Shown: positions 12,001-62,791, counted from the first letter of the stretch. The stretch: DNA of 64,000 nt from Candidatus Margulisiibacteriota bacterium (GCA_003242895.1 QKMY01000058.1:12739-76738), one strand, 5' to 3'. The notes: generated from the letters alone by a model not told the origin. Made by a program: numbers and translations.

Positions 12001-13696
12001 TTGAAGGATTGGTCACATCTACCCAGAATGGCCCGCGATGAGCAGTATTGTAAGAAAGGTTGCTGGCGGAATCTTCAGGACGGATATGCAGGTAATAATC
12101 CTGTGCAGTAACGAGTGGAGAAGGAAGAAAAGTATAGCTAGTCACATTACCTACTCCGGAATCAGTGCTGTTTAACACTGTTGCTGAGGCCCTATCAAAT
12201 CTATATCGATAGGTGCTGATATTACTTCCGCCCATATCATTCGACATATTCCAGTATGCATTAACACTTTTCATCCAGGTGCTTGTATTCGGAGCTGTTA
12301 TCATGATATCCGGAGGGTTAGAAATATCTATATTTAATATAAAAGTCCTCGTTTGACTCCAGACGCCCGAAATACTTTTAACTTTTGCTTTAAAAGTATA
12401 AGTCCCTTGCGTTGAATAGGTACTTGGTAATGTGTATGAACTAGCAGCCTGGTCAATGATTGTGTCTGGTTCTGATCCATCCGTTGTATAGCTGATCCCT
12501 GCCATTCCGGAAATATTGCTCGGCGCTGTTATCGTAATCTGATGTCCAGTCAGGTTAGTCCAGACATTACTTACAGTACCCCTGCTGCTCACTATTGCCG
12601 GAGCGGCAGTGGAAGCATCTATCCAGACTTGGCTAAGGCTTGCCTCTGAACTCTCATTGCCTGCATTATCAACAGTCTTTACATATAACGTATATTTTCC
12701 ATCGATCGGACTGGCTTGAGAGGCACTTGTACCTGTAGTCGTACCTGAATAGGTCGTGTTAGTGCCAACCAACCTCCAACGATATTCTTTTAGTCCGCTC
12801 CCGCCAGAATCTGTAGCTGCAGTCCAGGAAAATGAAATCGGAGTTGCATTATTTGTATACCAGGTATTAAGTGTATGGGAAGTGCAGGAGAAACTTCCTG
12901 GTATCGAAGGGGCTATTGAGTCTATATAAAAAGGTCCCACATTAGTTGGAAGCGTTCCGGTATAGGTATGTCCCGCATCATCATTAACTACATTAAAATT
13001 AAGATATTGAGCGGTTGTGCTGGAAGTGTTGTAATCAAAAACATATGTTGGGCTATTTGAGGTATAATTTCCCCAATTCGTATATATATTTAATGGAGCG
13101 GCTCCACTGTCGTTTGTTTGCACTGTTACACGGACACTTTGATACCATGTTGGACCGCTGCCGGTTTTTACGGTTGATTGTGAAACAGAAGAAATAGGGT
13201 TCCAGTCAGCTTTGATTGTTATGGAATCAGAATATTGACTGCCATTAATGTAACAGGTTCCAGTATGAGTATTTGAACCCCCATTTGAGATTGCCCCATT
13301 CGGATTGTTAACATACAGAGAGTATGGGCTTGCATGACCACATCCTCCTGATGAGTAACTGATAGTGTAGCTTGAATATCCTGAGTTGGTAATATATCCG
13401 TTTGTCAAAGGAGCAGAACAGTAGAGACTGGCATAAGCTGAATAATAATCATGATAATCGTAATGTCCCGCAGAACAATATTGACAAGGATACGAGTAAT
13501 ATCCAGTACAATTCCCCATGCCGTCGTAGCCAGTGCAATAGCCGCAGGAGGTCCAAGCATACGAATCACACACCCACCAGTTATGGTATCCAGGCCAGGA
13601 AGCTGAAGATGCCCAGCTACCAGCGGCAGTGATTAGCAACATAATCACCCCGAAAAATAACGCATATAAAAATGTAATATTTTTAATCTTCCTCAA
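1..13696 (-). CDS. Giant secreted Ig-like repeat surface protein (partial, C-terminus lies beyond window start); >=4565 codons in window
   Basis: Manual minus-strand translation in the frame with codon first bases at coordinates = 1 mod 3 runs from TTG 13696 to position 2 without a stop. GAGGA 6 nt upstream; in-frame TGA at 13706-13708; alternative ATG at 13642. N-terminus MRKIKNITFLYALFFGVIMLLITAAGSWASSASW looks like a signal peptide. Recurrent motifs such as LYLWVKDRAGNIS and VTVTDNAGN. Not in the supplied ORF track, presumably because there is no stop inside the window. Confidence 0.85.
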   Translation of the reverse strand, partial: MRKIKNITFLYALFFGVIMLLITAAGSWASSASWPGYHNWWVCDSYAWTSCGYCTGYDGMGNCTGYYSYPCQYCSAGHYDYHDYYSAYASLYCSAPLTNGYITNSGYSSYTISYSSGGCGHASPYSLYVNNPNGAISNGGSNTHTGTCYINGSQYSDSITIKADWNPISSVSQSTVKTGSGPTWYQSVRVTVQTNDSGAAPLNIYTNWGNYTSNSPTYVFDYNTSSTTAQYLNFNVVNDDAGHTYTGTLPTNVGPFYIDSIAPSIPGSFSCTSHTLNTWYTNNATPISFSWTAATDSGGSGLKEYRWRLVGTNTTYSGTTTGTSASQASPIDGKYTLYVKTVDNAGNESSEASLSQVWIDASTAAPAIVSSRGTVSNVWTNLTGHQITITAPSNISGMAGISYTTDGSEPDTIIDQAASSYTLPSTYSTQGTYTFKAKVKSISGVWSQTRTFILNIDISNPPDIMITAPNTSTWMKSVNAYWNMSNDMGGSNISTYRYRFDRASATVLNSTDSGVGNVTSYTFLPSPLVTAQDYYLHIRPEDSASNLSYNTAHRGPFWVDVTNPSNITGLIRTAGVQANGIWTANNMLSMQWNASNDNVTYATQSGVAGYSYAANASAGTLADGTYDTVGTQLNNIVLPNSATAYFHVHAVDNVGNVGVEANLGPFKIDAAIPAGPVLSCVHSGGASMPDGVNGWTNKSGVFTFSINAPFSVSGIDRYSYTTDGTTPGDTNGIIIVDPAGSDPLQTFQITKTEGTYSINVRAKNNAGTWGNVTSFLLKIDTTIPPDISITAPATGTWLPNIGAYWTTSYDQGGSGINTYRYKLDNVSGTLVTSSDNGFGNVTYYTFPASALVSAQNYWLHIRPEDQAINISASTAHRGPFWVDVTPPTDVANVRCTSGHTTGTWSNNPVVRIDWNQASDAHSGLDGYVYSWDTNSNTEPAPGVAAANIYYQASLIDGNNLWFHVRSKDKVANYSTNSTHIGPFLIDTTGPVGSITIADDTDGSSIYQPENGYFDQTTVGFSWSISDSGSGINSVAYQLDSAAPVWGQSANGSLTCSLSEGVHTVYVIARDSVGNSSTFSKNIIVDLTAPVLNMAIAPDSDSNSDGISPIFPYYDDNTVDFSWEMSDASGPYQSGGAYRYRVATSDIPANTEWNAWSGFAYNGNAVNFVAYSNDGSYQNLGYVQARDRAGHVTESQAGFYVDMVAPVILGPDLLLPVNFLPCPPVLIGDVTPDIGYYGKETVVVYTIPTSAMQDVGGFTSSPYFAKNSIGTVSWTPYNTNTMNVYTSANIYKPATFNVAVADKAGNIKASAVGSQWVDTTTPNFYFVEVREDSDSGGDGVDPEPNWYDDSSITLKWDPAWDSVSLNTKTYFFSTNNGLTWSSGISLNTIGDINVGAVQGIVSIQIKVADAAGHVATKDVTVNVDTVSPTGFAVNWPQSGYYDKNNVVVSWTPAADNCQLKDRPFRAKVDNNAWSEWFTGQQFQFTGLAEGMRTLYLEVADRAGNVSISSTTLYIMASAPDGTLELSPKIISRGTWVHVTLNMSIEDISLLPNFQSIPELKMVYRYEDNSSSTPIVLSGSGLNYGLGNYTGEYIYKGDFLFNPGITPNSIEFYLSATNNAGTATKEKLIQSLIFSQGIIGTPTLILSDQDTYSTVWTNDLVVSVTLQGGGAASYWLLTEVNTPPVSPQDSRWSNSNQPLYTFKNNTNGLKTIYSWIMDAMGNISAGTSAAINYDATLPYVVSIDITNMPNISAGTKTVTINLSEELTYLPYAVIPEMWVTFNGGVKTNLNLTKVSPSLYTATLTIDGATPEGAAVFGVRIIDNANNVGSQILSGGSIVIDKSNPVVTSFKVMDRLTGSTLYTNSNRVDLEIKSSDSGSGIGWWLVTENNTFTPQANDSNWSGIVPEVYTLSGDQGAKKLYIWVKDLAQNISARATANNNLAGGPIDVATSIVYDSMYTPPTVDIQLLSIGDIHNVYSSTPVTVTLRMDNETQISTASLWIKLYGQDKVEVPLSSIINSGGNSYSCSGIVPFTVIGTANFEVSVTDVVGNATTRVNKIYYNTGISSINGGEIRINRNVAVPTVTMFDRGTSSSQYTNNQMIGVNIGNDPDAVRWLLSESSTGVAPEANDQNWRIDRPITYTFKNRVNELKSLFVWVKNRNEIISPVSTVATINYDDVIPFAVSVDIDNSPYVNGGVKTITVNLSEALQETPLLSLTVNGISVVLGPAAKVSGTKYTWVFNSSGMNGLGTFGIKITDNASNVGTGILAGGQISIDSTSPNISTFRLFDKLTGSELYTNARVVDLTLSGSSDINSWIITENSAFVPDTADSNWGAKPTSYQLTNVQGTHNVYIWGKDYALNINSNTTTIVYDNLIPEIGIDINHNPLNPITATKNLNVTINVLNIPSGISVTPNLYFNPYQKAAVPVTILGRTGTQFYGSITINSQTANGPAYFSAQVTDNARNYGTSVQWLKYSSIYFSNQLTVNIALITPTFILYDLDSKSSQFTNDFVVGVSYNYDQRSSAWLISETQSTNPSLTDPLWQSTPPVYFVLKNTNNGTRTSYLWTKDAAGNINTVPAIAIINYDNVFPQATSINFERGRYIKAGTSRVTVNISESVSATPDFYLTFMGSKRTITFDYFDGLTLAGFFTVDPNENGTAVINLTITDNALNITNVIPAGLISTINFDTVLPPDPTLGVNTSGLNRPDNSSGYTNTPTINVTISKDPDYFRYVIRELTAVPSENAEDWMPEPVQYRFVYETQGTRNLYLWVKDRAGNISNQYAFNSIVYDIDIPTGSLKLKCQANRSNQITNSLSNIVELAANDTDYYIITENAQFGKPDPLAAVWSAVKPANYDFDPDNIEEGPRYLYCWLMDKSGNINNVVVTTSIYYDPSVPNIGLLLTKSGWISTGDVSVTLDIGENIIVTPDLTYEVGGTTYSVELTPVDITRNAFIATLNVTEAFPNGFLTFHMTITDNAGTVTSDTFSYGTTTLNVDTVIPIIATAAIYDMDKPNSYNLTNDNPFNITMAITESTIKGYYISSNLIADPASIPPGTWLSERPQTYFHSESQGQYGYYIWVKDHAGNISLPRYVSTNFDAIAPTVSVEMARPPGVATFYGIGVVAVTINFNEPIASDSLSINIVCVADNRVNTLTYTVVNSQLVTGSFSVDGSFGDGRQFFRIIAEDLVGNRRVSDKPQGNYLENLDWPNTFVVATGIGFVSLKILDRDNLNNFSSSKYTNERYINMLFDQVALVTHYMITSNIGIKPVLVDITSPNNSESNEFSLNNYYISPSLAPDNQETVVTYNLWVKGASDIHNESTINASILVDLLTPEVTVSLNEGIKKIHAGEYILTVSVTEYIPSNNIKNSKFTYFNAATKILSFTPVGSPDSNNFYNTFRTTINIDSDTPSGQMTLSFNTYDKAGNRVDISTTYDISVVPNPSFNITDTNNGSPVFTNELTVSLNIISDDFADFYIITENATYYTRPERSFTAWRPKAEYTDSYTLSSGDGPKTLAFWVKDSSDPFEANINTKLITRTITLDTMEPTVNIRIGKTLGIGYSTVTFNYNEPILVAPSYFITMTPASGSPNALTRSIDILYSVSSNHTWIGQVEIRPFDVNDTATISGQTIDRAGNLSTSLFGTVTFSIDTLIPDPTFNIIDTDTDSNLYVNDLVVGLQIGNDKDAVKYMVSYTQSTQPTLNSPGWNADKPSNFTLKNVVNENKKLYLWVQDAYKNINKNVVSANIFYDDTPPQTEVKFGYRPYIKEGDYKITLNITQEILALNNTPDFKVQYAGQEALAIDIVPMDSSRYLWVGTINVNAEAPEGVATFSLSVTDNASNVQNKIISGMQTFVIDKTRPSAPGFTAYDPITLIQSYTNQRTIGVSVNIDSSVYMWYLSDQTNVTPDFDAVGWLTQQPTTFTFSDMVISTKNIKLWIQDRAGNISSTGSRSIYLDYDEPTATILISTYPNVKAGILNITLNVSEATLVGVSLNYTLYGYGEVARNVTLNQVSALTYTGTINVTEDFANGAALFNVQLVDYSGNRSNKLSGDIVFQVDTLLPEFSVHSIPDCYLNNTTLNITLNVSEAVSATPSVIFHSDIDAPVIMSCIGLNVWTGSLYISDSLGFDSSASLDVTVTDNAGNRSLAFVKPYTIDKIPADFTVESIKNSPNLAIGSYTLTLNVSEHTINPPQAYFSMSDSSTHSILMSRSINNYWAGDIIISDGYPEGICTINIRVTDYAGNVTSIFGGIVTFNVLITLADPTMNITDRTSGDKIYTNEYSIAVDVGNDNTAVKWMVNETQSVKPEWNAAGWQSSKPNLYTLNAGPEGHRKVYLWIQDSARNINKTIVSQNIILDTIKPVSQINMTKRDFVSIGAVSLTLSIQEDTPATPELKLVYADGSTLNFLLNGVSPNIYTATFNVFQNDPQGVASFYLCVTDNASNVQNTLVGDKQFVLDTVASTPSFVIFDYDTGDTNYTHDLLPRVIINSDADVVSWILSEVQPTRPSPTSNYWRNEKPYEYTFRNTDFGIKTVYLWVKDSAGNINDMAVTRSISYFRSTSVNIEVTAIKIFNQTGSTYSYIRP
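100..7960 (-). repeat. Tandem coding repeat array inside the giant gene: ~13 diverged copies of a ~200-220 aa two-domain module (period ~600-680 nt)
   Basis: Motif [LF]W[VI][KQ]D-x-AGNI recurs at approx. 135, 740, 1925, 2555, 3180, 3805, 4485, 5095, 5405, 6020, 6640, 7240, 7930, interleaved with a second motif (V-T/D-D-N-A-x-N). Copies are conserved at protein level but diverged at DNA level. Confidence 0.7.
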
Positions 13697-13727
13697 TAGA
13701 TATCCTCAATTATTCTATACGTAATAC

Positions 13728-15068
13728 CTATTTTGCACATCTGAACCCTGTACAGCCACAAGGACTCGAAGGAGCTATTCCGGCCATAATGGAAAAAACC
13801 CCTGATTGTTCATTCATTTTGTGTTCTCCGCCTCTCAGCAAAGCGGCAGGGAAGCATTGTCCTTCCGCTTGATTAGAAGCTGATTTAACTTCACTAACAC
13901 TATCGTTACCATAGGAAACTCCCGTATTAGGAAAAAATCCGGGATCATACTGACCTTTACCGATTCTTATCATTTTCAGGGTTTCTACTATCAATTTCTC
14001 TATATCCTTAAATTTTGGATCAATTTCTAATGTAAATGCTTTCATATCAGGCTGAAATCTACTCGATATCTTTCTGTTTTCATCGAGGTAATAATTCTTC
14101 TTTAATTCTTCCCAGATTTCTTCAGATTTAAACGAGGTTTTTTTTTCAATCTCATCAAAGGCATTTTTTTGTACTGGCCCCTGATAAAACATGCCATTAC
14201 CCTGCATCCAGTCGCTTACCCATTCATTTACATTCCCCGCCATGCCAACACAGCCAAAGGTAGAAATTTCCTGAGCGGCTATAGTGTCCCAGGAGGCCGG
14301 AAGTTCCCCTCCCCGCCCTTTGCTTAACGCCGTGCCTGCTGCGCCGTCCTGCCATTCGCCGTTTGTCACCAGCCGCTTCCCTGCGTTAACTGCTGCCCTG
14401 CGAGCGACAAACCAGGTCATTCCGGTCGAACACTCAGCCCTTTGAGAAAAAGCCATCCAATATGGTGGCACATTCTGGCCATTACCCGCCAAAATCCCAA
14501 AATCATTATGATTATGATCATGTTGGCTGTCTTTTTTATTTTCGTTCCGCTGAATAAAATATGTCCCTTTTACGTCAGCACCTTTATAATCTGCACCCAC
14601 ATCAATTATCCGGCAGGAATACTTATCTATCCAAACGGTACCTACCTTCACCTGTATATCATCTTGCCCGCATCGGTATGCCGGCATATCCGGATTGTAT
14701 TTGTTATTAATATGAGTTCCTGGCGGCAACTGATCCAGTTTGCCATGAAAAAAACCGACATTATTTCCTGTTACTATCCAGGAAACAGGATCTCCAGGAT
14801 CAATTGTGCCCCGGCTGGCATCTATGACTTTATTATATTTCCAGGCCCTTTCTTCATCATCCCACCCTACCCATAGAGCATTAAACATTAGATAACTCTG
14901 TCCATTATTGCTAAAATCCGGCCATTGATATACCGGAACAGAGTTAGCATAATAGTTGGGTAACCGGTTATCAACCTGCTGAACCGCGGCTTCGCCGACA
15001 ACTGAAAATACCATTAAAAAAAAGCATAGTGAAAGTATAATTCTGATCTTGTGATAAAATTGCATCAT
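13728..15068 (-). CDS. FGE-sulfatase/SUMF1-family domain protein (formylglycine-generating-enzyme-like; GldK/GldJ-like possibility), secreted
   Basis: 446 aa with N-terminal signal peptide. Motifs AGKRLVTNGEWQDGAAGT and MAGNVNEWVSDW resemble the FGE signatures RLPTEAEW..ARGG and GNVWEW. ~140-aa C-terminal extension ending PCGCTGFRCAK. 31 bp upstream of the giant gene, same strand. Confidence 0.65.
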   Translation of the reverse strand: MMQFYHKIRIILSLCFFLMVFSVVGEAAVQQVDNRLPNYYANSVPVYQWPDFSNNGQSYLMFNALWVGWDDEERAWKYNKVIDASRGTIDPGDPVSWIVTGNNVGFFHGKLDQLPPGTHINNKYNPDMPAYRCGQDDIQVKVGTVWIDKYSCRIIDVGADYKGADVKGTYFIQRNENKKDSQHDHNHNDFGILAGNGQNVPPYWMAFSQRAECSTGMTWFVARRAAVNAGKRLVTNGEWQDGAAGTALSKGRGGELPASWDTIAAQEISTFGCVGMAGNVNEWVSDWMQGNGMFYQGPVQKNAFDEIEKKTSFKSEEIWEELKKNYYLDENRKISSRFQPDMKAFTLEIDPKFKDIEKLIVETLKMIRIGKGQYDPGFFPNTGVSYGNDSVSEVKSASNQAEGQCFPAALLRGGEHKMNEQSGVFSIMAGIAPSSPCGCTGFRCAK

Positions 15069-15076
15069 CGTCTCCC

Positions 15077-15790
15077 TTATAATAAAAATAAAATACCTAG
15101 CGCTAAAAACGTAAAAGCCATAACCAACTTAAACCAACCTATTTTTTCTGTCAAAAATCCGGAAAGCTTCCGGGAAGAAAGCCCGCTGTAAGTTAATAAT
15201 CCGATTATGATTAAAGGAAAAACAAAAAATACGTTATAAACGAACAATAGCAATGTGCCCTTTATCGCAGAACCGGTTTTTATCATATACAGAATCGAAG
15301 GGAAATATATCTGTCCGGTACAGTTCAGCTCAAATATAGATACCAGGAAACCTAATACCAGTGAGGCAATCACGATATTTCCTGTCATGGTTTTCTCTCT
15401 GATTGCGTTTTTAATTCTTTTTTGTAAAAAGTCCGGTAACCGTAAGATGAACTTATTTTTTTTTGTAAATGCCAGATAAGCATCATAAAAAGAAAGGGCC
15501 GAACCAATGAATGCAAGACCTGCTATAACGCATTGAAAAAGCCTGGCAACAATAAAGTATGAACCGGTTTTATAAAGAAATTGAAATAAGCCAAACCCTA
15601 TCAAAAAATAGGTAACAAACACTGCTATCGTAAATAATGCAAAAGAAAGCATCATTTCCTGTTTTCTCTGTCGTACTGACAGGTACGAGAGCAAAAAAAT
15701 TACCGTACCAAATGCACACGGATTTATTCCGTCGATTAAACCTGCCATGCATATAGTAATAAAACTGAGATTAACCAAACTATTTAGCAT
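15077..15790 (-). CDS. CcdA/DsbD_2-family thiol:disulfide transmembrane electron-transfer protein
   Basis: 237 aa, polytopic and hydrophobic. N-terminal motif GLIDGINPCAF and a second membrane-embedded Cys (FELNCTGQIY), as in the cytochrome c biogenesis transmembrane (DsbD_2) family. Confidence 0.55.
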   Translation of the reverse strand: MLNSLVNLSFITICMAGLIDGINPCAFGTVIFLLSYLSVRQRKQEMMLSFALFTIAVFVTYFLIGFGLFQFLYKTGSYFIVARLFQCVIAGLAFIGSALSFYDAYLAFTKKNKFILRLPDFLQKRIKNAIREKTMTGNIVIASLVLGFLVSIFELNCTGQIYFPSILYMIKTGSAIKGTLLLFVYNVFFVFPLIIIGLLTYSGLSSRKLSGFLTEKIGWFKLVMAFTFLALGILFLL

Positions 15791-16880
15791 CCTCTCTCAT
15801 AATATGATCAAGCTGTCTCTCTATCTCAGTTTTACCTGCCAGTAACAGTCCATTAAAATATAGTGCCGGCAGATCAAGTTTATTTCCCATTATCTTCATA
15901 TAAGTCTTATAATTATCAGGCTCTTCCAGAGGATAAAAAACAACCTCATAATGTTTATTATGAGCAGCTAATACCTGCGGGATCTTCTTTGTTCTTAGTT
16001 TGTGACAATAGGCACAATTACTGTTAGAAAATACATAAATAATATCCCTGGATAACCTTGTATCTTTTTGCTTTTCCTGACCTCTTAACTCTTTATAATA
16101 TTCGAGCATCAGACCCTTAAGCTTTTTTGAGGCCATAAAACTGTCGGCAGGTATCATTTTCTGGGAGATGAGATTAACGGTCCCCTTCTCTATGCTAAAA
16201 ACCATCTTTCCAAGGAATTGAGCATCTTTTCCTGCTGATACAAAATGTGTCTGCCCTACTGTAAAAGAATTCTGATACTCACTTTCACTGGAGACAATAA
16301 TATCAATCCAAGGGAATTTCTTCGCGATTTCAATATTCTCTTTTTTAGAAAGCTGGGATAATAAAACTGTCAGGTCAGCTGATTTTTTTTGTACACTAAA
16401 GTGCCCTGACAAATACGTCTCGAATGCAGATTGCTTATCAGCAGCAACCCCGAGAATGATTATAGTGACTCCGGATTTCTTAACCGAAATGTATTTCTGG
16501 GTTTGTGCACCTGATTGAACAGAGGATACAAGAGGAAGTTCACGTACCTGGTTATCTGCCGGCACATCCAGGTTAATTGCATCATATTTAAATAAGTTCA
16601 TAGCGGCTGCAACATACTTGTTTTTTGCACTATTATCAGGTAAAAAAGTTCCTCCGTTATCAACTATTACTAAATTAGGATTGCGTTCCCTTTCTTTTTC
16701 AACAAGAGGCAATAGCAACTCTAGTCCGCCATTCGCTTCTGTTGAACAATTACACGATTCTAATTTCCCGTTGATATTAGAGGTAAACAGCAGGGTAATA
16801 GTTTCTGCATTCAAAAAATTACAACTGCACATCGATAATACAGTAATAAGAAAAAAATAATTAATAATAATTCTACCCAT
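15780..16880 (-). CDS. Exported thioredoxin/glutaredoxin-like CxxC protein with N-terminal degenerate metallophosphoesterase-like domain
   Basis: 366 aa with signal peptide. C-terminal thioredoxin-fold-like segment with CAYC (YVFSNSNCAYCHKLRTKKIP...). N-terminal part weakly resembles a calcineurin-like phosphoesterase (ITLLFTSNINGKL, LVIVDNGGTF) but lacks the usual His/Asp ligands. Overlaps the CcdA-like gene by 11 bp. Confidence 0.5.
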   Translation of the reverse strand: MGRIIINYFFLITVLSMCSCNFLNAETITLLFTSNINGKLESCNCSTEANGGLELLLPLVEKERERNPNLVIVDNGGTFLPDNSAKNKYVAAAMNLFKYDAINLDVPADNQVRELPLVSSVQSGAQTQKYISVKKSGVTIIILGVAADKQSAFETYLSGHFSVQKKSADLTVLLSQLSKKENIEIAKKFPWIDIIVSSESEYQNSFTVGQTHFVSAGKDAQFLGKMVFSIEKGTVNLISQKMIPADSFMASKKLKGLMLEYYKELRGQEKQKDTRLSRDIIYVFSNSNCAYCHKLRTKKIPQVLAAHNKHYEVVFYPLEEPDNYKTYMKIMGNKLDLPALYFNGLLLAGKTEIERQLDHIMREDAK

Positions 16881-16900
16881 CCGTACACCATGACCTCGAA

Positions 16901-19561
16901 TTATTTACTGTTCTCGATACTAGCTATAACTTTTTCAGCATCAACAGAATCGCTTATCAATAGAGAACCTGGGACCCCTCCGGGCAGAGCATTACGAATG
17001 AACGCATCAATATCCTCCTGGCTTGCTTTACCGATATGGCCAAAACTCTTTTTGATTAACGTAACTATACCTTGCTTGCTTAGGTGTTTAGCAACTCCGA
17101 CAACTTGTTCCTGTGCATCTATTACTTCAATATTAGTAATCGTTTTGCTCTTAAGCTCAATTACCTGATTGACCATATCACGCATACCTTCTGTCAGAAT
17201 GCTCCTAATGTGCTCACTGTCAGTGTTATCAATATGAACAATCGCTGCTGCTGCTATATAGGGATCAACAACGGAAAAGATCTGACGGAGTGCGGTGTCG
17301 TCCAGCAGCAACAGATCTTCGAATAACAGGATCATATCTCTGATCTCTTCAAGTACATCCGGGAACCTTTCAGCCATAACCTTAGTAAGCTCAGTCTTGT
17401 CGTTGTCCCTTATCTGATTAAGAAGCCCAAGGACAACTTCTCTTCCACCAACAAGGCTTGATAGTTTCTCCCTTATACGCGTGTCCAGAAACTCTATCTC
17501 TTCTTTACTATATTGGTTACTATAAACCAAATATGAAAGTACTTCTGCTTGCTCTAAATGGCATAACTGAGACAGAATAATATTAGCCATAGACGGCGAT
17601 AAATAAGATAAAATTATTGATATTTTTTCTAGATCGATTTGTCCCTGTTCATATTCTGACTTGAGCAAATTCCTTAGCTTAAAAATATTCCCTTCATTAA
17701 CAAATGCAAAAAATCCGACAAATGAATTCGATGTCAAATCAATGGACGCTGCCGCTCCAATCGGTCCCGAACCAGCATCTTTCGATCCCTCGCTTGCTCC
17801 ATATCCAGCCCCAAGAGTTAGCGCGCTTGACGAAGCTGCTCCAGATTTATCAGCCATTTTAGTCACACCATCGGAAACTACCGATAAAGATTTCCTGAAT
17901 AAAACGCCTATCAATAAAATAACTACAATGATTGCAGCAGTATTAGCTATAGAAACATAATGGTTGATTCCTAATGCCAGCGACTTTTTAGATTGTGAAT
18001 CCGAAAAATCCCCCGTTTGTGAGACACTCTTGTATTCTGCCCTAAACTTATCAACTATATTTTGTACGTCGAGAACAGTGTCCTTTCGAACTCTGTAAGC
18101 TATTTCTTCATTTTTCGATAGCCTGTCTTCCACCAACTTTAAATTTCGATTAAGTTCTTCCTGGATATTTTGATTATTATTAAAGAATTTATCTGCGACA
18201 GAAGACATAGATTCGTCACTAATTTTATCTTTAGTTATGAACAAATTTTTATTCATTTTTACCGGAAAATCAAAAAAACCATTCACAATACCAACGATTT
18301 TCTTCTCTTTATTACTATCGATATCAGTTGGCACAGTAATATATACATTTACATCTTTAATAAAATATTTGTCATATAAATTGGTCGATTGAATAGGAAC
18401 ACCAGGCAATAATGATTTTTCCTGAATTGGGGAAAACAGATCAATACCGATATCCAGCTTTAATAAAACAACGATATCTTTGATATTCAACTTTTTTCTG
18501 ATAACATTTTGTAACCTGGTTTCCAATGTCTGTTCCAGTTCTGTTTGTTTTCCAATAAAAGCACGGTCCTGTTGTCTGCCCTCATGCTGAAGAAATTCTC
18601 TCACCAGTTTGTTATCAGGATCGATTTTCAGGACGTTATTCCAGTCTTGTCTTGCCTTATCAAAATTATCCAGCAAAAAATTAGCGGACCCTCTTCTCAT
18701 TAACGCCGCTACATTTTTAGGGTCTACATCCAAAACTTCATTGCATTCTTTAACAGCATCATAAAACTTCCACTCGTTTATATATTTTAAGGCCCTTGCT
18801 AATTTCTCTTCAATTATTTCATCAAAATCATTCTGTTTGATAATATTGTGAACATCGTTTATTAAATCCTCAGATTTTTTTGTATTCAAGTATTTACTAA
18901 CGCTATCATCCAATAATTTATTCTTGATAAAAACATTAGCCTCTCTCTTCGGAAATTTAAATTCGTTCTTGAATTTAGCGATTTTGTCACTAAATCTATC
19001 TGTATTTGACAGCATTTCAACCATTTTTCCCCGAGACAAATAGATCCTATCTTCTAACGGAGAAGATCCAGAGGCCAGATTGGCGCTACCGTTATAATAA
19101 TTTTTTGGAAAAACCAACAATTTATTGATTATTTCAGCGGCTTCTTTTTCCTCGATGAATGACTTTGGATAAAATTTCTTATTGTCGGGAACACCAATTA
19201 ATTTCAGATTAACAGCTCTGCATATAGCCGGAGCTGCACTATAGTCTTCAGGCACATCAACAAAAAAGTTGGAATACTTATAGTTATCATCTTTATCTGT
19301 TAAAGAAACGATAAATGTAATGAATTGGCTTTTATTGATTAAACGGTCTGAATTAAATAAATTACCTTTATTAGGGATGAGGAGCTTGTTTGTAACAAAA
19401 TAATATATTTCTTTGGCATAAGGATCTTTTTCAGATATGTCTTTGAGAACAAACGTTTCCGATTTTTCGGCCTTCGTTACAACAACATCACCTATGGTAG
19501 CTTGAGCCATTATGAATATCAACGCTATTACAGCGATAATTGTCCGTTTTAATAACTTCAA
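16901..19561 (-). CDS. Bitopic membrane protein: periplasmic TPR-containing domain, one TM helix, Gly/Ala/Ser linker, cytoplasmic FliG-like (FliG_M + FliG_C / MgtE_N-like) domain
   Basis: 886 aa; TTG start with AAGGGGGA RBS. TPR-like segment YDAVKECNEVLDVDPKNVAALMRRGSANFLL..NNVLKIDPDN. TM helix SIANTAAIIVVILLIGVLF. C-terminal ILSYLSPSMANIILSQLCHLEQAEVL and MILLFEDLLLLDDTALRQIF resemble the FliG middle and C-terminal signatures. Confidence 0.6.
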   Translation of the reverse strand: MKLLKRTIIAVIALIFIMAQATIGDVVVTKAEKSETFVLKDISEKDPYAKEIYYFVTNKLLIPNKGNLFNSDRLINKSQFITFIVSLTDKDDNYKYSNFFVDVPEDYSAAPAICRAVNLKLIGVPDNKKFYPKSFIEEKEAAEIINKLLVFPKNYYNGSANLASGSSPLEDRIYLSRGKMVEMLSNTDRFSDKIAKFKNEFKFPKREANVFIKNKLLDDSVSKYLNTKKSEDLINDVHNIIKQNDFDEIIEEKLARALKYINEWKFYDAVKECNEVLDVDPKNVAALMRRGSANFLLDNFDKARQDWNNVLKIDPDNKLVREFLQHEGRQQDRAFIGKQTELEQTLETRLQNVIRKKLNIKDIVVLLKLDIGIDLFSPIQEKSLLPGVPIQSTNLYDKYFIKDVNVYITVPTDIDSNKEKKIVGIVNGFFDFPVKMNKNLFITKDKISDESMSSVADKFFNNNQNIQEELNRNLKLVEDRLSKNEEIAYRVRKDTVLDVQNIVDKFRAEYKSVSQTGDFSDSQSKKSLALGINHYVSIANTAAIIVVILLIGVLFRKSLSVVSDGVTKMADKSGAASSSALTLGAGYGASEGSKDAGSGPIGAAASIDLTSNSFVGFFAFVNEGNIFKLRNLLKSEYEQGQIDLEKISIILSYLSPSMANIILSQLCHLEQAEVLSYLVYSNQYSKEEIEFLDTRIREKLSSLVGGREVVLGLLNQIRDNDKTELTKVMAERFPDVLEEIRDMILLFEDLLLLDDTALRQIFSVVDPYIAAAAIVHIDNTDSEHIRSILTEGMRDMVNQVIELKSKTITNIEVIDAQEQVVGVAKHLSKQGIVTLIKKSFGHIGKASQEDIDAFIRNALPGGVPGSLLISDSVDAEKVIASIENSK

Positions 19562-19585
19562 ACAATAATCCCCCTTATTTATTCT

Positions 19586-20827
19586 CTAATACTGATTTTC
19601 CAAAGAATTCTCTATAAATTTAAGCAATTCCATTATCGAGCGGTTTGCCGGCATATACTTTTCTGCATTTTTCGCTTCATTATAAGCATCCATGACCCTG
19701 TCAGCCTTCAACAATTCCCTGGCTTTCTGAATGTGCTCCCACGCTTGCTTTTCATCCGCCAGCGAATATGTTTTCAGTTTTAAAATATTATCCAATTTCT
19801 CTATTTGCTCTTTAATCTCGGCAGTAAGCTCTGCAATAGTTCCCGCGGAGCTATAAGATTGCCTGGATAAATTGTAAAAACCTCTTTCCTGGTACATAGA
19901 ACCCTCAAGAATAAGTTTATCACACTCTTTCTTAATAACCTCTTTTTTATCGTCACCAAAGTTTAAAACCATAGAAAATTTCATCGTATCGCCTATGGTC
20001 TCTTGTTTACCTAACGCTAAATCGAACTTAAACATCAGATATTCTATACCTATGCCAAAAGTGAGTTCGTTATAATTAATCCCACTTCGAAGATAAAGCA
20101 TATCCAACAGCTTGTATTCCGCCCCTAAATACCACTGATCAAAGGAATCTGTGATATCATAGGCAATTATCCAGTCATTATCAGCGTAACTAATGCCACC
20201 ACGCCATACCATAGGGATAGTATCTGCAGTCATCGAAGGAGCATTATTCATCACATAAATATTATTAAGTACTGCGCCTATAGTCATTTTATCTAAAATC
20301 TTATAATTTAAGCCTAGATCAAAAACAAAAAAAGAATCAGAGCTAACATCCAACTCTCGATTAAACATTTTGAATCCAATACCGTAAGACAATTTATGAT
20401 CAAATTGTTTGGCATAGCCAAGGCACAATGCACTACTCTTATCATTAAATGAACCTATATTATTGTTGTCTTTATCTGTTTTTATAAATCCGACTGAATC
20501 AGATAAATTGATTAGCCCTCCTCCATACGTTTCGTATAACCCGGGATAAACAAATGAGAGAACAGAATAAGAGTAAGCTTGGAACATTGAGGCTGACATA
20601 AAAAGGAAAGACATTTTTGGTACATCTACTAAACAAGCAGGATTGCGATAAACAGATGAAGCATCCTTACTATTTGTTACATACGTTCTCCCCATTGCAA
20701 AAGACCTTGCATCTGCTCCGTATGAGAATAAAGCTCCAGGCTGACCCGCATCAAGCGCTTGAGAACCGCCGACGAAAAAGATCAGGTTTAAAACAAAAAA
20801 AATAATTAGAAAGACACTTTTTAACAT
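19586..20827 (-). CDS. Outer-membrane beta-barrel protein, PorV/PorQ-like N-terminal signature, plus C-terminal alpha-helical domain
   Basis: 413 aa with signal peptide. N-terminal motif GADARSFAMGRTYVTNSKDASSVYRNPACL matches the PorV/UPF0164-type signature. Alternating amphipathic beta pattern for ~290 aa, then a ~120-aa charged helical tail. First gene of the operon. Confidence 0.45.
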   Translation of the reverse strand: MLKSVFLIIFFVLNLIFFVGGSQALDAGQPGALFSYGADARSFAMGRTYVTNSKDASSVYRNPACLVDVPKMSFLFMSASMFQAYSYSVLSFVYPGLYETYGGGLINLSDSVGFIKTDKDNNNIGSFNDKSSALCLGYAKQFDHKLSYGIGFKMFNRELDVSSDSFFVFDLGLNYKILDKMTIGAVLNNIYVMNNAPSMTADTIPMVWRGGISYADNDWIIAYDITDSFDQWYLGAEYKLLDMLYLRSGINYNELTFGIGIEYLMFKFDLALGKQETIGDTMKFSMVLNFGDDKKEVIKKECDKLILEGSMYQERGFYNLSRQSYSSAGTIAELTAEIKEQIEKLDNILKLKTYSLADEKQAWEHIQKARELLKADRVMDAYNEAKNAEKYMPANRSIMELLKFIENSLENQY

Positions 20828-21430
20828 ATATGTCCACTATCAGCTGCTTATCTACTTAAACCAATATGAAATTGATAATAAAATTATCGTTAAACTCATC
20901 ACCTATCTTAATTTTATCAAAGATTTAACCAATCACACAAAAAAAGGCTTTATTATAACCCTTATTCTCGCCCCCAAATGAATCGATTTTTTCAAAATCC
21001 AGGGGTAAAGGCTTACATAAGCAGCTAATTATAACTGCTGTAAAAATCTATCGGGGAAATATGCCCAACGACTTGTATCGACTGATTATGGTTTATTGAG
21101 GACGGCACCTAGGAGATGTCTTTTTAAGTTTTAAGTGAGAATTAGTTTTATTGAATGTTAAAATTTTTAAAGCTAATAATTAGAAGAATAATTGAACTAT
21201 TCTATAAGCTTTTGCCGAAGTAAAAATATAGTAATCATCGTCAAAACATTTTAATTTGAAAAGAATTATGTGGATTTAAGAAATAGATAATTATCGTTTT
21301 GATCTATCGAGAATCAAATGGATTTGGAGATATTCCCTACAAGCTGCCAATCATATTATATGGAAATAATAGAATTATTAAAATCTAAAGAAATAAATTT
21401 TAAGGATTAAACTTGCTTATACATTTAAAA

Positions 21431-21507
21431 TGGTCGGGGCGACTGGATTTGAACCAGCGGCCCCCTGTTCCCAAAACAGGTGCGCTACCGAGCTGCGCCA
21501 CGCCCCG
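21431..21507 (-). tRNA. tRNA-Pro (anticodon UGG)
   Basis: Minus-strand sequence CGGGGCGTGGCGCAGCTCGGTAGCGCACCTGTTTTGGGAACAGGGGGCCGCTGGTTCAAATCCAGTCGCCCCGACCA folds as a cloverleaf: 7-bp acceptor stem, anticodon loop TTTGGGA, T-loop TTCAAAT, encoded CCA. Confidence 0.9.
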
Positions 21508-62083: not shown

Positions 62084-62155
62084 AGTCTGCATAGCAAAAT
62101 TTACTATTGAGCATACTCAAATACCTCCGAACCCTGAATTCTTCCGGCAAAAGGG

Positions 62156-62184
62156 TTATCAAATGCCTGGTTTAGGTCTATAAT
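62156..62184 (+). promoter_or_regulatory. Candidate sigma70-type promoter for the small membrane-protein gene
   Basis: TTATCA (62156-62161), 17-nt spacer, TATAAT (62179-62184), about 55 nt upstream of the ATG at 62241. Confidence 0.3.
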
Positions 62185-62240
62185 ATACTCGTGAGTTTTG
62201 ATCCTCTAACATCAAGCAAATTTCCCAAAGGATTAATATT

Positions 62241-62504
62241 ATGAAAAAAGAAACCTTCTCGTTTATAGCTATGGTTATACTTATGGCTATCGGCGGCTTA
62301 TATCAATATTCGTTTTTGTGCGGCACAGGGCTTATTATATATGGTCTACATGGCGCAGTAGCAAAGGAATACAATAACGGCAGCAAAAAAGTGGAAGGCA
62401 TGAGTGCTGCAATTTTAGGTCTATTATTTATAATGACAGGGGTAATTATTATCATTCATAGCTATAAATATGGTGTCAACTATATGTGGCATAGATGGAG
62501 CTAA
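62241..62504 (+). CDS. Small hypothetical membrane protein
   Basis: 87 aa with two hydrophobic helices; RBS-like AAAGGATTAATATT before ATG. Confidence 0.4.
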   Translation: MKKETFSFIAMVILMAIGGLYQYSFLCGTGLIIYGLHGAVAKEYNNGSKKVEGMSAAILGLLFIMTGVIIIIHSYKYGVNYMWHRWS

Positions 62505-62563
62505 TGTCCAGATGAAAATAAGCACCTAGCATGGAATGAAAATACCAAACTAGGTGCATTGAG

Positions 62564-62791
62564 TTATTCTACTTCTCCTATACCTTTTGCAACATCAATT
62601 GGGCTAGTATAGGTTTTATCAGGAATCCTTCTAAGAATGTCAAGAATATCACTTGTTGCTCCGTGATTTTGTGCAAATTGAACCATGGAATCCCTTGAAG
62701 CAGGAAAATCGATCCCTTTTAAATACTTTTCTATAGCAGCTGGACTTGGATTTGGCATATAATATTCCCCCCCTTTGTTTTTAAATAACAC
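62564..62791 (-). CDS. DUF2795-like small protein
   Basis: 75 aa; internal sequence NPSPAAIEKYLKGIDFPASRDSMVQFAQNHGATSDILDILRRIPDKTYTSPIDVAKGIGEV is typical of this conserved family. True start is probably the internal Met (MPNPSP...). Confidence 0.5.
   Translation of the reverse strand: MLFKNKGGEYYMPNPSPAAIEKYLKGIDFPASRDSMVQFAQNHGATSDILDILRRIPDKTYTSPIDVAKGIGEVE

What the first reader, a model, noticed from the sequence alone, without database searches (positions are those of the whole stretch)
13696..21430. Six-gene co-directional operon with a ~600-bp AT-rich leader
PorV-like barrel, TPR/FliG-like membrane protein, Trx-like protein, CcdA-like protein, FGE-like protein and the giant protein are all on the minus strand with short gaps or overlaps (24, 20, -11, 8, 31 bp). 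The unit is preceded by an unusually long non-coding AT-rich region (20828-21430), which would hold the promoter and any regulatory RNA or sites.
Basis: seen in the sequence. Interest (0 to 1): 0.5.

Follow-up and report, generated by a model that had tools for sequence, protein, structure and literature searches.

The report
Giant adhesin operon with flagellar-rotor-like ring
The six tightly packed genes are real and appear to encode a 5,692-residue surface protein plus its own envelope-spanning apparatus (an outer-membrane PorV-like barrel and an inner-membrane protein built from flagellar FliF and FliG parts), while the long "leader" is mostly leftover DNA containing a dead gene fragment rather than a regulatory RNA.

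Summary
The gene layout is confirmed: six minus-strand genes with gaps of 24, 20, -11, 8 and 31 nt, in a Candidatus Margulisiibacteriota genome.

- **Core trio.** PorV-like barrel, then the "TPR/FliG" protein, then a giant protein. This order recurs in the four relatives found, three of which retain enough downstream sequence to show the large protein. The Trx-like, CcdA and FGE-like genes occur only here, together with a Cys/Tyr-rich N-terminus on this giant.
- **The 886-aa protein.** It reads signal peptide, SLH, TPR, FliF RBM3-like ring motif, TM helix, FliG middle and C domains. It belongs to a family whose named members and all recovered genomic loci are Margulisiibacteriota, and that lacks the five stator-contacting charges of true FliG.
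- **The giant.** It ends in a T9SS type-A-like C-terminal domain, matching the PorV-like partner. Such CTD proteins sit beside FliF/FliG-like genes in other Margulisbacteria too.
- **Neighbours elsewhere.** Three relatives carry a motAB pair with altered rotor-contact charges next to the cluster.
- **The 603-bp "leader".** It begins at a tRNA-Pro gene and has ordinary intergenic AT content. It has no Rfam hit, no convincing fold signal and no conservation. It contains a decayed copy of the giant's own CTD-coding sequence.

Operon status is likely but has no transcript evidence. The function is inferred, not shown.

The parts
1..13696 (-). Giant secreted protein: the first 4,565 of 5,692 codons. 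It has a signal peptide, a Cys/Tyr-rich segment at residues 43-148, and Ig/Y_Y_Y-like repeats. The C-terminal T9SS type-A-like CTD lies outside the window.
   Evidence: The frame is open from TTG 13696 to window position 1. A GAGGA Shine-Dalgarno sequence sits 7 nt upstream. Pfam finds Y_Y_Y and Big_13. The full length and C-terminus were rebuilt from locus L019. The CTD matches the PorU C-terminal region at E 2.8e-9 and TIGR04183 at 18.7 bits, below the cutoff of 23. Nine of the 31 Cys lie in residues 43-148.
13728..15068 (-). Secreted FGE-fold (SUMF1/EgtB/PvdO-like) protein, 446 aa, with an insertion of about 100 aa. It ends in ...CGCTGFRCAK.
   Evidence: Pfam FGE-sulfatase scores 27.7 bits against a cutoff of 23.3, covering residues 260-302 only. 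There are no NCBIfam hits and no PDB sequence hits at E up to 1. The canonical CHxSYCxRYR-type motif is not seen.
15077..15790 (-). CcdA/DsbD-type membrane thiol-disulfide electron conduit, 237 aa.
   Evidence: Pfam DsbD_TM scores 29.1 bits against a cutoff of 27.1. Cys residues lie in 'INPCAFG' and 'ELNCTGQ'. The gene overlaps the upstream gene by 11 nt.
15780..16880 (-). Secreted protein, 366 aa, with an UshA-like (metallophosphatase-like, CNC motif) N-terminal part and a glutaredoxin/thioredoxin-like C-terminal part carrying CAYC.
   Evidence: NCBIfam 'UshA-like (seleno)protein' E 7.4e-17, which is below its cutoff. Thioredoxin_2 and glutaredoxin give weak hits. Cys lie at positions 43, 45, 289 and 292.
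16901..19561 (-). 886-aa bitopic inner-membrane protein. Order: signal peptide, SLH-like, TPR, FliF RBM3-like ring-building motif, coiled coil, TM helix (about residues 535-563), Gly/Ala linker, FliG middle and C domains.
19586..20827 (-). Outer-membrane FadL/PorV-superfamily barrel (residues about 70-290) with a C-terminal six-helix TPR-like domain (residues 294-412), 413 aa.
20828..21430 (-). 603-bp spacer (the 'leader'). It is composite: tRNA trailer, decayed gene fragment, hairpins, then a likely promoter and 5'UTR.
   Evidence: Sequence. No Rfam family. Fold z -0.64. Not conserved with relatives.
21244..21328 (-). Relic of a CTD-coding sequence: 'PNPFDSR*IKTIIIYFLN...', with an in-frame stop.
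   Evidence: tblastn against the giant's CTD gives 54% identity over 28 aa. blastn gives 80% identity over 54 nt to the giant's own CTD-coding DNA, E 2.6e-9. A CTD HMM in a six-frame search of the window gives i-E 1.2e-5. Alignment A6.
21041..21069 (-). Terminator-like hairpin with a U-run. It lies where the relic gene's stop codon would have been (about 21049).
   Evidence: Terminator scan. Part of the only sub-window with a mild fold signal, z -1.75.
20911..20940 (-). Candidate promoter: TTGTGT, 18 nt, TGaTAAAAT (extended -10), about 85 nt upstream of the ATG. Unverified.
   Evidence: Read from the sequence. Relatives show TGATATAAT motifs in their upstream regions. The consensus scan is no better than chance overall.
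21431..21507 (-). tRNA-Pro(tgg), which bounds the spacer. The best sigma-70-like site in the region (TTGAAA-17-TAGAAT, 21565-21537) lies just upstream of it.
   Evidence: ARAGORN and Rfam, 64.8 bits. Promoter scan.
23580..25910 (-). Paralogous PorV-family barrel fused to two SLH domains and a FlgD_ig domain, 776 aa. It forms a second cargo-plus-barrel pair with the next entry.
   Evidence: NCBIfam PorV_fam 121 bits against a cutoff of 90. Pfam SLH E 2.9e-23 and FlgD_ig. It matches an HMM of the PorV-like proteins at E 7e-29.
26206..30012 (-). 1,268-aa secreted protein ending in the same CTD type.
   Evidence: tblastn against the giant's CTD gives E 1.7e-14. The PorU C-terminal region matches at E 6.2e-13 and TIGR04183 at E 4.7e-4.

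Best explanation
**What it is.** The six genes are most likely one transcription unit of a Candidatus Margulisiibacteriota bacterium. It makes a 5,692-aa repetitive surface protein together with a dedicated envelope apparatus.

**Shown here.**
- The giant has a Sec-type signal peptide and ends in a T9SS type-A-like C-terminal domain (CTD).
- The first gene encodes a FadL/PorV-superfamily outer-membrane barrel with a periplasmic TPR-like tail.
- The second gene encodes a bitopic inner-membrane protein. Its periplasmic part carries SLH, TPR and a FliF RBM3-type ring-building motif. Its cytoplasmic part is a FliG middle-plus-C domain.

**Inferred.**
- The PorV-like barrel binds the giant's CTD and holds or escorts it at the outer membrane, as PorV does for T9SS cargo.
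- The FliF/FliG-like protein oligomerises into a ring that spans the periplasm. Its SLH domain would tether it to the cell wall, and its TPR would contact the barrel's TPR-like tail or the cargo.
- The ring therefore couples the surface protein to the inner membrane and cytoplasm.
- The three middle genes are a lineage-specific add-on. CcdA would pass reducing equivalents to the periplasmic Trx-like protein, and with the FGE-fold protein this would mature the Cys/Tyr-rich N-terminal segment found only on this giant.

**The 603-bp 'leader'.** It is not a dedicated regulatory RNA. It is a composite of a tRNA-Pro trailer, a decayed fragment of a CTD-coding gene, terminator-like hairpins, and about 220 bp that probably hold the promoter and 5'UTR.
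For: **Layout and operon signals.**

**Conserved core order.** PorV-like, then FliF/FliG-like, then a large secreted Ig-repeat protein recurs in L007, L008 and L010; in L011 the contig ends inside the second gene. Junctions run from -4 to 104 nt.

**Fusion/split evidence.** In Marinamargulisbacteria the SLH/TPR part is a separate adjacent gene. In another locus type a separate TPR protein lies two genes upstream.

**CTD.**. The same CTD, at 40-44% identity, ends the giant proteins that sit next to FliF/FliG-like genes in L014 and L018. A signal-peptide-plus-CTD mini-protein lies next to the third paralogous locus, L020.

**PorV-like fold.**

**Second pair in the window.** A CTD-bearing cargo and a PorV-family barrel sit side by side.

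**Redox trio and Cys-rich N-terminus.** Both occur only at this locus.

**Leader relic.**
Against: - There are no transcript data.
- No physical interaction has been tested.
- The PorV-like protein (80.7 bits against a cutoff of 90) and the giant's CTD (18.7 against 23) fall just below the curated cutoffs.
- No core T9SS genes (SprA, PorK/L/M/N, PorU) were seen in the stretches examined, so the route across the outer membrane is unknown.
- The link between the redox trio and the Cys-rich segment rests on a single locus.
- The FGE-fold protein lacks the canonical catalytic motif, and the giant has no CxPxR site.
- An SLH wall tether and a rotor-derived ring are hard to reconcile mechanistically.
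Confidence: 0.55

Rival explanations
1. A non-flagellar, MotAB-powered machine. The FliF/FliG-like ring is a rotor, or a force-transmitting hub, driven by a dedicated stator. It moves, tensions or exports the giant CTD adhesin held by the PorV-like barrel, in the way GldLM drives SprB in Flavobacterium gliding. It may be under chemosensory control.
For: - In L007, L010 and L011 a motA/motB pair lies divergently next to the PorV-like gene. It aligns full-length to PomA/MotP-type stators, and MotB has the plug and the essential Asp. L007 also has an MCP gene there.
- A CheY-like regulator precedes the third paralogous locus.
- All 50 family members sampled have lost most or all of the five FliG charges that contact MotA, while the Gly-Gly hinge is invariant and the MFxF motif nearly so (47 of 50). 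The new Q-plus-aromatic surface is itself conserved.
- The adjacent MotA proteins have in turn lost the PomA R88 and E96 equivalents (Q/S/S and A/Q/Q). This pattern suggests a co-adapted interface.
Against: - The motAB adjacency is seen in only one sub-clade, which also shares neighbouring housekeeping genes (argS, gcpE). It may be inherited synteny from a single event.
- No motAB was found in this window or in nine other loci.
- An SLH wall-binding domain on the putative rotor argues against free rotation.
- Loss of the torque-helix charges could simply mean there is no stator contact.
- Whether these organisms also have true flagella was not determined.
Confidence: 0.2
2. The six genes are not one operon. 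Internal promoters lie inside coding sequence, for example ahead of the inserted redox trio or the giant gene, and give two or three independently expressed units.
For: - The three middle genes are a lineage-specific insertion.
- The FGE-like gene and the giant's 5' end are more GC-rich (0.42-0.46) than the upstream genes (0.31-0.37).
- Sigma-70-like matches occur inside the coding regions.
- A 17-kb gene may need its own promoter to be expressed adequately.
Against: - The junctions of 8-31 nt are too short to hold both a terminator and a promoter.
- The count of promoter-like sites equals chance (36 found, 31.9 expected).
- No terminator-like site lies at any junction.
- Relatives keep the core genes abutting or overlapping.
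Confidence: 0.2
3. The 603-bp region encodes a cis-regulatory RNA (riboswitch or leader) or an sRNA that controls the operon.
For: - The spacer is unusually long.
- The sub-window 20921-21070 has three hairpins and a mild fold signal, z -1.75.
- Upstream regions of related clusters are also long, at 177-468 bp.
Against: - No Rfam family matches.
- The overall fold z is -0.64.
- No sequence is shared with the upstream regions of the four relatives, including the paralogous cluster from the same organism or a near-identical strain.
- Part of the region is demonstrably a decayed coding fragment.
- The hairpins fit terminators for the tRNA or the relic gene.
Confidence: 0.07
4. The FliF/FliG-like gene is a vestige of a lost flagellum, with no functional tie to its neighbours.
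For: - It lacks FliG_N, RBM1/2 and the torque-helix charges.
- No other flagellar genes are nearby.
Against: - There are at least three paralogues per genome and about a hundred divergent family members, with structural motifs invariant or nearly so and a conserved replacement surface.
- The family shows repeated gene fusion and fission with SLH/TPR partners.
- It is repeatedly adjacent to giant or CTD-bearing proteins.
Confidence: 0.03

Closest known systems
T9SS cargo with PorV/PorQ-type outer-membrane partner (Bacteroidota; for example PorV in 6H3I, and the SprB giant adhesin of Flavobacterium gliding)
   Same: - A FadL-like barrel of the PorV/PorQ family.
- Cargo with a C-terminal beta-sandwich sorting domain carrying the 'NYPNPF...' signature.
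- A repetitive adhesin of more than 5,000 aa encoded next to its outer-membrane partner.
- An FGE-fold protein in the cluster. PorK, GldK and GldJ are FGE-fold proteins (from background knowledge, not tested here).
   Different: - The phylum lies outside Bacteroidota/FCB. No paper in the library links T9SS to Margulisbacteria.
- Both the barrel and the CTD score just below the curated cutoffs.
- No SprA, PorL/M/K/N or PorU genes were seen in the stretches examined.
- The barrel carries a TPR-like tail.
- The inner-membrane partner derives from FliF/FliG, not GldL/M.
Flagellar MS-ring and C-ring proteins FliF and FliG (including the engineered FliF-FliG fusion solved as 8Z4D)
   Same: - An RBM3-type ring-building fold, followed by a TM helix, followed by FliG middle and C domains.
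- The Gly-Gly hinge is invariant and the MFxF motif nearly so (47 of 50 members).
- The order matches FliF's C-terminal half joined to FliG.
   Different: - It lacks RBM1, RBM2 and FliG_N.
- All five conserved stator-contacting charges are replaced.
- It has an N-terminal SLH and TPR.
- It is not in a flagellar operon. No FliM/N, export gate, rod or hook genes are nearby.
- There are several paralogues per genome.
CcdA/DsbD-thioredoxin periplasmic reducing pathways (for example CcdA-ResA)
   Same: A DsbD_TM protein with two membrane-embedded Cys, encoded next to and overlapping a secreted CxxC thioredoxin-fold protein.
   Different: - The Trx-like domain is fused to an UshA-like module with a CNC motif.
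- The pair is associated with an FGE-fold protein and a giant adhesin, not with cytochrome c maturation.
Formylglycine-generating enzyme / SUMF1-EgtB-PvdO superfamily
   Same: The Pfam FGE-sulfatase domain and a C-terminal ...GFRCA motif.
   Different: - Only a partial profile match, with an insertion of about 100 aa.
- The canonical catalytic Cys motif was not found.
- There is no CxPxR target in the giant.
Giant genes of Omnitrophota and other bacteria (bioRxiv 10.1101/2023.11.21.568195)
   Same: A very long repetitive secreted protein encoded beside envelope and secretion genes in an uncultivated lineage.
   Different: The size class is different (5.7 kaa against more than 30 kaa). The accessory genes differ too: that abstract describes type II secretion homologues and SecA-like domains.

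Membership tests
PorV/PorQ family (NCBIfam NF033709) | Whole-protein score at or above the curated cutoff of 90 bits | tested here: not met
   The 413-aa protein scores 80.7 bits, E 1.4e-22. The 776-aa paralogue in the window does pass, at 121 bits.
PorV/PorQ family (NCBIfam NF033709) | FadL-like 14-stranded outer-membrane barrel fold | tested here: met
PorV/PorQ family (NCBIfam NF033709) | Works with cargo that carries a T9SS C-terminal domain | tested here: inconclusive
   CTD-bearing cargo is encoded in the same unit, and a second cargo-plus-barrel pair lies in the window. Binding itself was not tested.
Type IX secretion system | Core components SprA/Sov, PorK, PorL, PorM, PorN and PorU present in the genome | not testable with these tools
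   None appeared among the window and locus proteins scanned. The whole genome could not be searched.
T9SS type A sorting domain (TIGR04183) | Score at or above the 23-bit cutoff at the extreme C-terminus | tested here: not met
   The giant scores 17-18.7 bits and p1268 scores 20.1. The homologous CTD of the L014 giant scores 23.3 and passes. All four match the C-terminal domain region of PorU at E 1e-5 to 6e-13.
Flagellar FliG | FliG middle and C-terminal domains with the Gly-Gly hinge and MFxF motif | tested here: met
   Pfam FliG_C and FliG_M. PDB profile E 1e-41 to 1LKV. GG is invariant in 50 of 50 members and F in 47 of 50.
Flagellar FliG | Conserved torque-helix charges (E. coli K264, R281, D288, D289, R297) | tested here: not met
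   40 of 40 true FliGs keep K, R, E, D, R. The window protein has V, G, Q, V, T at these positions. Family members mostly have V/M/I, S/G/A, Q, F/Y/W and S/T.
Flagellar FliG | N-terminal FliF-binding domain and a flagellar gene neighbourhood (FliM/N, FliH/I/J) | tested here: not met
   The window protein has no significant FliG_N hit (E 0.87). Neighbours are not flagellar genes in any of 12 loci.
Flagellar FliF (MS ring) | RBM3 / YscJ_FliF_C periplasmic ring-building domain before the second TM helix | tested here: met
Flagellar FliF (MS ring) | RBM1 and RBM2 domains | tested here: not met
   Only one alpha-beta-beta-alpha-beta module is present. SLH and TPR occupy the N-terminal part.
CcdA/DsbD_TM (PF02683) | Passes the gathering score and has two conserved membrane Cys | tested here: met
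   29.1 bits against 27.1. Cys25 and Cys157 lie in PC- and NC-type motifs.
Formylglycine-generating enzyme | Catalytic Cys pair motif, and a CxPxR site in a substrate | tested here: not met
   The domain hit is partial. No such motif appears in the C-terminal region, and the giant has no C.P.R.
Known cis-regulatory RNA or sRNA (Rfam 15) | Match at or above the family's gathering score in 20828-21430 | tested here: not met
   Only the tRNA passes. The best other match has E 0.13, at 33.9 bits against a gathering score of 59.
Operon (single transcription unit) | Co-directional genes, short or overlapping junctions, no junction terminators, conserved order | tested here: met
Operon (single transcription unit) | A single transcript spanning all junctions | not testable with these tools
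   No expression data are available.

The most novel reading that the evidence does not exclude
Margulisbacteria have re-used the C-terminal half of FliF fused to FliG as the core of a non-flagellar envelope machine. A stator-type MotAB unit, with a co-adapted and charge-altered interface, would act on a FliF/FliG-like ring. That ring is linked through TPR contacts to a PorV-like outer-membrane barrel holding a giant CTD adhesin. This would be a new kind of ion-driven surface-adhesin motor or exporter, a candidate for flagellum-independent motility or prey/host attachment in a sister lineage of Cyanobacteria. It would also be a natural intermediate for thinking about how flagellar rotors evolved.
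Probability: 0.2. Interest if true: 0.9.

Novelty: new variant of a known kind. Interest (0 to 1): 0.62.

Why it matters
**Why the operon matters.** As an operon call it is routine. Its content is not. It exposes a protein family, so far found only in Margulisiibacteriota, that joins a FliF ring-building domain to FliG outside any flagellar context. That family is repeatedly encoded next to giant proteins carrying T9SS-like sorting domains and PorV-like barrels.

If the inferred coupling is real, three things follow.
- T9SS-style cargo handling would extend to a Cyanobacteria-related phylum.
- Flagellar rotor parts would be shown serving another envelope function.
- There would be a concrete, testable candidate for how giant surface proteins are anchored or moved.

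**Why the leader result matters.** It is a useful negative. The long AT-rich spacer is explained by a tRNA boundary plus gene decay, not by an unknown riboregulator.

Tried and rejected
**Leader region**
- Rfam at gathering score over the whole window, and at E up to 10 over the leader: tRNA only.
- Folding of the whole leader and of five 150-nt sub-windows: no convincing structure.
- Pairwise local alignment of the leader with four relatives' upstream regions against shuffles. Only a low-complexity match and an L010-L011 17-mer emerged, with nothing involving a conserved element in the window.
- Small ORFs in the leader: none of note.
- A motA/motB remnant in the leader or elsewhere in the window, by tblastn: none.
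- A second copy of the tRNA-Pro 3' end, which would mark island att sites, in the loci and in L019: none.

**Database searches that fell short**
- An exact-pattern scan of metagenome contigs with the window's first 30 nt found nothing. A protein-based scan then recovered L019.
A closer 8-sequence alignment worked.
- Word-indexed homologue searches with the PorV-like and 886-aa proteins returned only 5 and 3 hits. The exhaustive HMMER search was needed.

**Hypotheses tested and dropped**
- The FGE-like protein against PDB sequences: no hit.
- A sulfatase-type CxPxR motif in the giant: absent.
- The idea that type-A loci were fliH/I/J-like. They proved to be ispF, cysS and thiE.
- The idea that the 392-aa lipoprotein of type-A loci is PorV-like: not supported.

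**Literature**
- Searches for FliG or T9SS in Margulisbacteria found nothing relevant.

Full report
**1. Observation**

The window comes from a Candidatus Margulisiibacteriota MAG. The same proteins occur on GCA_001783265.1 MFRF01000005 and GCA_003537615.1.

| Gene | Coordinates | Length |
|---|---|---|
| PorV-like | 19586-20827 | 413 aa |
| "TPR/FliG" protein | 16901-19561 | 886 aa, TTG start |
| Trx-like | 15780-16880 | 366 aa |
| CcdA-like | 15077-15790 | 237 aa |
| FGE-like | 13728-15068 | 446 aa |
| Giant | from TTG 13696 to window position 1 | at least 4,565 codons in the window |

- The gaps are 24, 20, -11, 8 and 31 nt.
- The full giant is 5,692 aa. I rebuilt it from locus L019, and the length matches the public annotation.
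- Good Shine-Dalgarno sequences precede the 886-aa, FGE-like and giant genes.
- The domain labels are confirmed by Pfam and NCBIfam.
- Co-directionality itself is not special, because the minus-strand run continues to 31634. The short junctions are what single out these six genes.
- Terminator-like sites number 7 against 6.3 expected by chance, and none lies at a junction. Promoter-like sites number 36 against 31.9 expected.

**2. The core of the unit is conserved and the middle is an insertion**

The PorV-like protein has only four non-identical relatives in 5.8 billion clustered proteins, at 46-57% identity. Their contigs show the following.

- In each, the PorV-like gene is followed directly by a 911-938-aa homologue of the 886-aa protein. 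In L011 that gene is cut by the contig end.
- In L007, L008 and L010 this is followed directly by a large signal-peptide-bearing Ig-repeat protein, with junctions from -4 to 104 nt. In L011 the contig ends first.
- L008 is a paralogous cluster recovered from the same groundwater study.
- None of the relatives has the Trx-like, CcdA or FGE-like genes.
- None of their large proteins has the Cys/Tyr-rich N-terminal segment seen here. In the window's giant, 9 of 31 Cys and 15% Tyr fall in residues 43-148, against 0.4% Cys elsewhere.

So the unit is a conserved trio plus a lineage-specific thiol-redox and FGE-fold insertion. That insertion co-occurs with a Cys-rich extension of the cargo, although this rests on a single locus.

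**3. The 886-aa protein is a FliF-FliG-type chimera**

*Sequence evidence*
- An exhaustive HMMER search of 1.84 billion representatives found a family of roughly 100 proteins, excluding TPR-only hits. Most are 470-560 aa and some are 850-890 aa.
- Every member that carries a source name is Margulisiibacteriota. All seven loci recovered from species-representative genomes are Termititenax, Riflemargulisbacteria or Marinamargulisbacteria.
- A family profile matches T. maritima FliG middle-plus-C domains at E 7e-42 and 1e-41.
- The same profile retrieves genuine FliGs at about E 1e-36.
- 25 of 50 members hit Pfam YscJ_FliF_C, with best E 6.4e-11.

*Structure evidence*
- An AlphaFold2 model of residues 331-886 has mean pLDDT 65, with the structured domains mostly between 75 and 90.
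- It shows an alpha-beta-beta-alpha-beta module, a long helix, a TM helix, a disordered Gly/Ala linker and the FliG fold.
- Hydropathy gives a signal peptide and one TM helix at about residues 535-563.

*Architecture*
- The order is: signal peptide, SLH (23.6 bits against a cutoff of 20.8), TPR, RBM3-like module, coiled coil, TM helix, FliG_M, FliG_C.
- In Marinamargulisbacteria the SLH/TPR part is a separate adjacent gene. In a third locus type a separate TPR protein and a lipoprotein precede a 550-aa FliF/FliG-like protein.
- This pattern of fusion and fission supports a functional link between the parts.

*It is not a working flagellar FliG*
- In an alignment with 40 true FliGs, the Gly-Gly hinge is invariant and the MFxF phenylalanine nearly so (47 of 50 members).
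- The five stator-contacting charges are invariant in the true FliGs as K, R, E, D, R.
- In the family they are replaced by V/M/I, S/G/A, Q (40 of 50), F/Y/W and S/T. This is a different surface, and it is itself conserved.
- FliG_N, RBM1 and RBM2 are absent, and no neighbourhood is flagellar.

**4. The giant carries a T9SS-like sorting domain**

- L019 supplies the missing 1,127 residues. The protein ends "...LSNYPNPFDSRQGITTITYFLN...IVWDGRNDNGRKVGKGGY...VIH".
- This region matches the C-terminal domain of PorU at E 2.8e-9, FlgD_ig, and TIGR04183 (type A sorting domain) at 17-18.7 bits against a cutoff of 23.
- The same domain, at 40-44% identity, ends the giant proteins encoded immediately upstream of the SLH/TPR and FliF/FliG-like genes in two Marinamargulisbacteria, L014 and L018. 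L014 reaches the TIGR04183 cutoff, at 23.3 bits.
- The domain also ends the window's 1,268-aa protein (26206-30012). That gene is followed by a 776-aa PorV-family barrel (121 bits against a cutoff of 90) fused to two SLH domains and a FlgD_ig domain.
- A third FliF/FliG-like locus, from the same sample as the window sequence, reads: CheY-like regulator, 400 bp, FliF/FliG-like (549 aa), a 225-aa FliG_MC-only protein, a 207-aa protein, then a 3,722-aa Kelch-repeat giant. A divergent 179-aa signal-peptide-plus-CTD protein sits beside it.
- The association of a FliF/FliG-like ring protein with giant or CTD-bearing secreted proteins therefore recurs across the phylum.

*The PorV-like protein*
- Its AF2 model has pLDDT 77 and pTM 0.69. 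It is a FadL/PorV-type barrel followed by six confident helices, a TPR-like tail.
- Sequence profiles favour PorV/PorQ (E 1.4e-22) over Toluene_X (E 0.0024).

**5. motAB in relatives**

- In L007, L010 and L011 a motA/motB pair lies divergently upstream of the PorV-like gene. L007 also has an MCP gene there.
- These proteins align full-length to PomA/MotP and MotB/MotS-type stators. MotB keeps its plug and the essential Asp.
- Against V. alginolyticus PomA from the PDB, L010 MotA has S at R88 and Q at E96.
- By alignment, L007 and L011 have Q and S at the R88 position and A and Q at the E96 position. The call to PomA does not depend on it.
- Loss of the rotor-contact charges in MotA alongside loss of the stator-contact charges in the FliG-like protein is what a co-adapted pair would show.
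- However, the adjacency is confined to one sub-clade that also shares housekeeping synteny (argS, gcpE). No motAB is present in the window or in the other loci.
- I therefore treat the motor reading as a minority hypothesis.

**6. The "leader"**

- The spacer runs from the PorV-like ATG at 20827 to tRNA-Pro(tgg) at 21431-21507.
- Its GC content, about 27%, is typical of intergenic DNA here (30%). Its length, 603 bp, is among the three longest spacers.
- No Rfam family matches. It has no significant fold, no conservation with relatives and no notable small ORF.
- Positions 21327-21244 translate to "PNPFDSR*IKTIIIYFLNPHNSFQIKMF". This is 54% identical over 28 aa to the giant's CTD.
- At the DNA level, 54 nt are 80% identical to the giant's own CTD-coding sequence (blastn E 2.6e-9). 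A CTD HMM finds the fragment in a six-frame search of the window at i-E 1.2e-5.
- A CAG-to-TAG change and the loss of similarity on both sides show that it is a dead fragment.
- Extrapolating the CTD length puts the former stop codon at about 21049. A hairpin with a U-run lies there, at 21069-21041.
- That leaves about 220 bp, close to the 219-bp spacer that follows the giant gene in L014.
- A plausible extended -10 promoter (TTGTGT, 18 nt, TGaTAAAAT; 20940-20911) lies in this proximal part. Relatives show TGATATAAT motifs. None of these promoters is verified.
- The strongest sigma-70-like site in the region sits just upstream of the tRNA, at 21565-21537. Read-through from the tRNA promoter is therefore possible.

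**7. Mechanism**

*Shown here*
- The domain identities, folds, gene order, CTD, leader relic and charge substitutions described above.

*Inferred*
- The PorV-like barrel binds the giant's CTD at the outer membrane.
- The FliF/FliG-like protein forms a ring in the inner membrane that reaches the wall through SLH and reaches the barrel or cargo through TPR.
- CcdA, the Trx-like protein and the FGE-fold protein mature the Cys/Tyr-rich N-terminus.

*Unknown*
- How a 5,692-aa protein crosses the outer membrane.
- What the cytoplasmic FliG-like domain binds.

*Canonical FGE chemistry is unlikely*
- The FGE-fold protein has no catalytic motif, and the giant has no CxPxR site.

**8. Comparison and novelty**

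- The closest known systems are T9SS cargo with PorV (including SprB-type giant adhesins) and the flagellar FliF/FliG rotor.
- The locus fails strict membership of both. The scores fall below cutoff and no core T9SS genes were seen. The torque-helix charges, FliG_N, RBM1/2 and a flagellar neighbourhood are all missing.
- I found no paper linking FliG-like proteins or T9SS to Margulisbacteria.
- I rate it a new variant of known kinds. There is a minority chance, about 0.2, that it is a new ion-driven envelope machine.

**9. Verdict**

- The operon interpretation is likely but untested.
- The leader interpretation is largely replaced by a tRNA boundary plus a gene relic.
- The real interest lies in the gene content rather than in the operon or leader as such.

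Noticed in passing
window 26206-30012 and 23580-25910 (minus strand): A second cargo-plus-barrel pair. A 1,268-aa secreted protein with the same T9SS-like CTD is followed by a 776-aa PorV-family barrel fused to two SLH domains and a FlgD_ig domain. This would be an outer-membrane barrel that also carries wall-binding modules.
   Followed up: partly
L020/L021 8312-21650 (same sample as the window sequence): A third FliF/FliG-like locus. Its order is: CheY-like response regulator, 400-bp spacer, 549-aa FliF/FliG-like protein, 225-aa FliG_MC-only protein, 207-aa secreted protein, then a 3,722-aa Kelch-repeat giant. A divergent 179-aa signal-peptide-plus-CTD mini-protein lies beside it.
   Followed up: partly
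L007 6530-9717; L010 8379-9823; L011 4136-5616: These loci carry motA/motB pairs whose MotA lacks the PomA R88/E96-equivalent charges. L007 also has an MCP gene next to motB. Whether these organisms have flagella is unknown.
   Followed up: partly
L001 (GCA_003537615.1) about 17783-17785, equivalent to window about 11650-11780: This assembly differs from the window by a net 124-nt deletion inside the giant gene's repeats. Its annotation splits the gene into 650 and 5,005 aa. This could be an assembly artefact in repeats or real variation.
   Followed up: no
L004-L006 positions 3-27 (window 21431-21455): Three independent Logan contigs start inside the 3' end of tRNA-Pro. This assembly break falls exactly at the boundary of the spacer and is compatible with strain-variable sequence there.
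   Followed up: no
L019 14686-15468: An FkbM-family methyltransferase gene lies 101 bp downstream of the giant on the same strand and may be a seventh member of the unit. Beyond it, on the opposite strand, are a 601-aa protein that looked helicase-like by eye and other genes that were not scanned.
   Followed up: partly
window 62084-63431: The longest ORF-poor stretch of the window, 1.35 kb, with only small ORFs: an 87-aa membrane protein, a 75-aa protein and a 78-aa protein, none of them scanned against family libraries. No Rfam family reached its gathering score there.
   Followed up: no
L008 7628-9532: Upstream of the paralogous cluster lies a 634-aa protein made almost entirely of left-handed beta-helix (hexapeptide) repeats. 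It has LpxA/LpxD-like hits but no obvious catalytic context.
   Followed up: no
window 15780-16880: The Trx-like protein's N-terminal half matches NCBIfam 'UshA-like (seleno)protein' models (E 7e-17) and has a CNC motif at residues 43-45. This points to a redox-active module rather than a phosphatase-like one.
   Followed up: no
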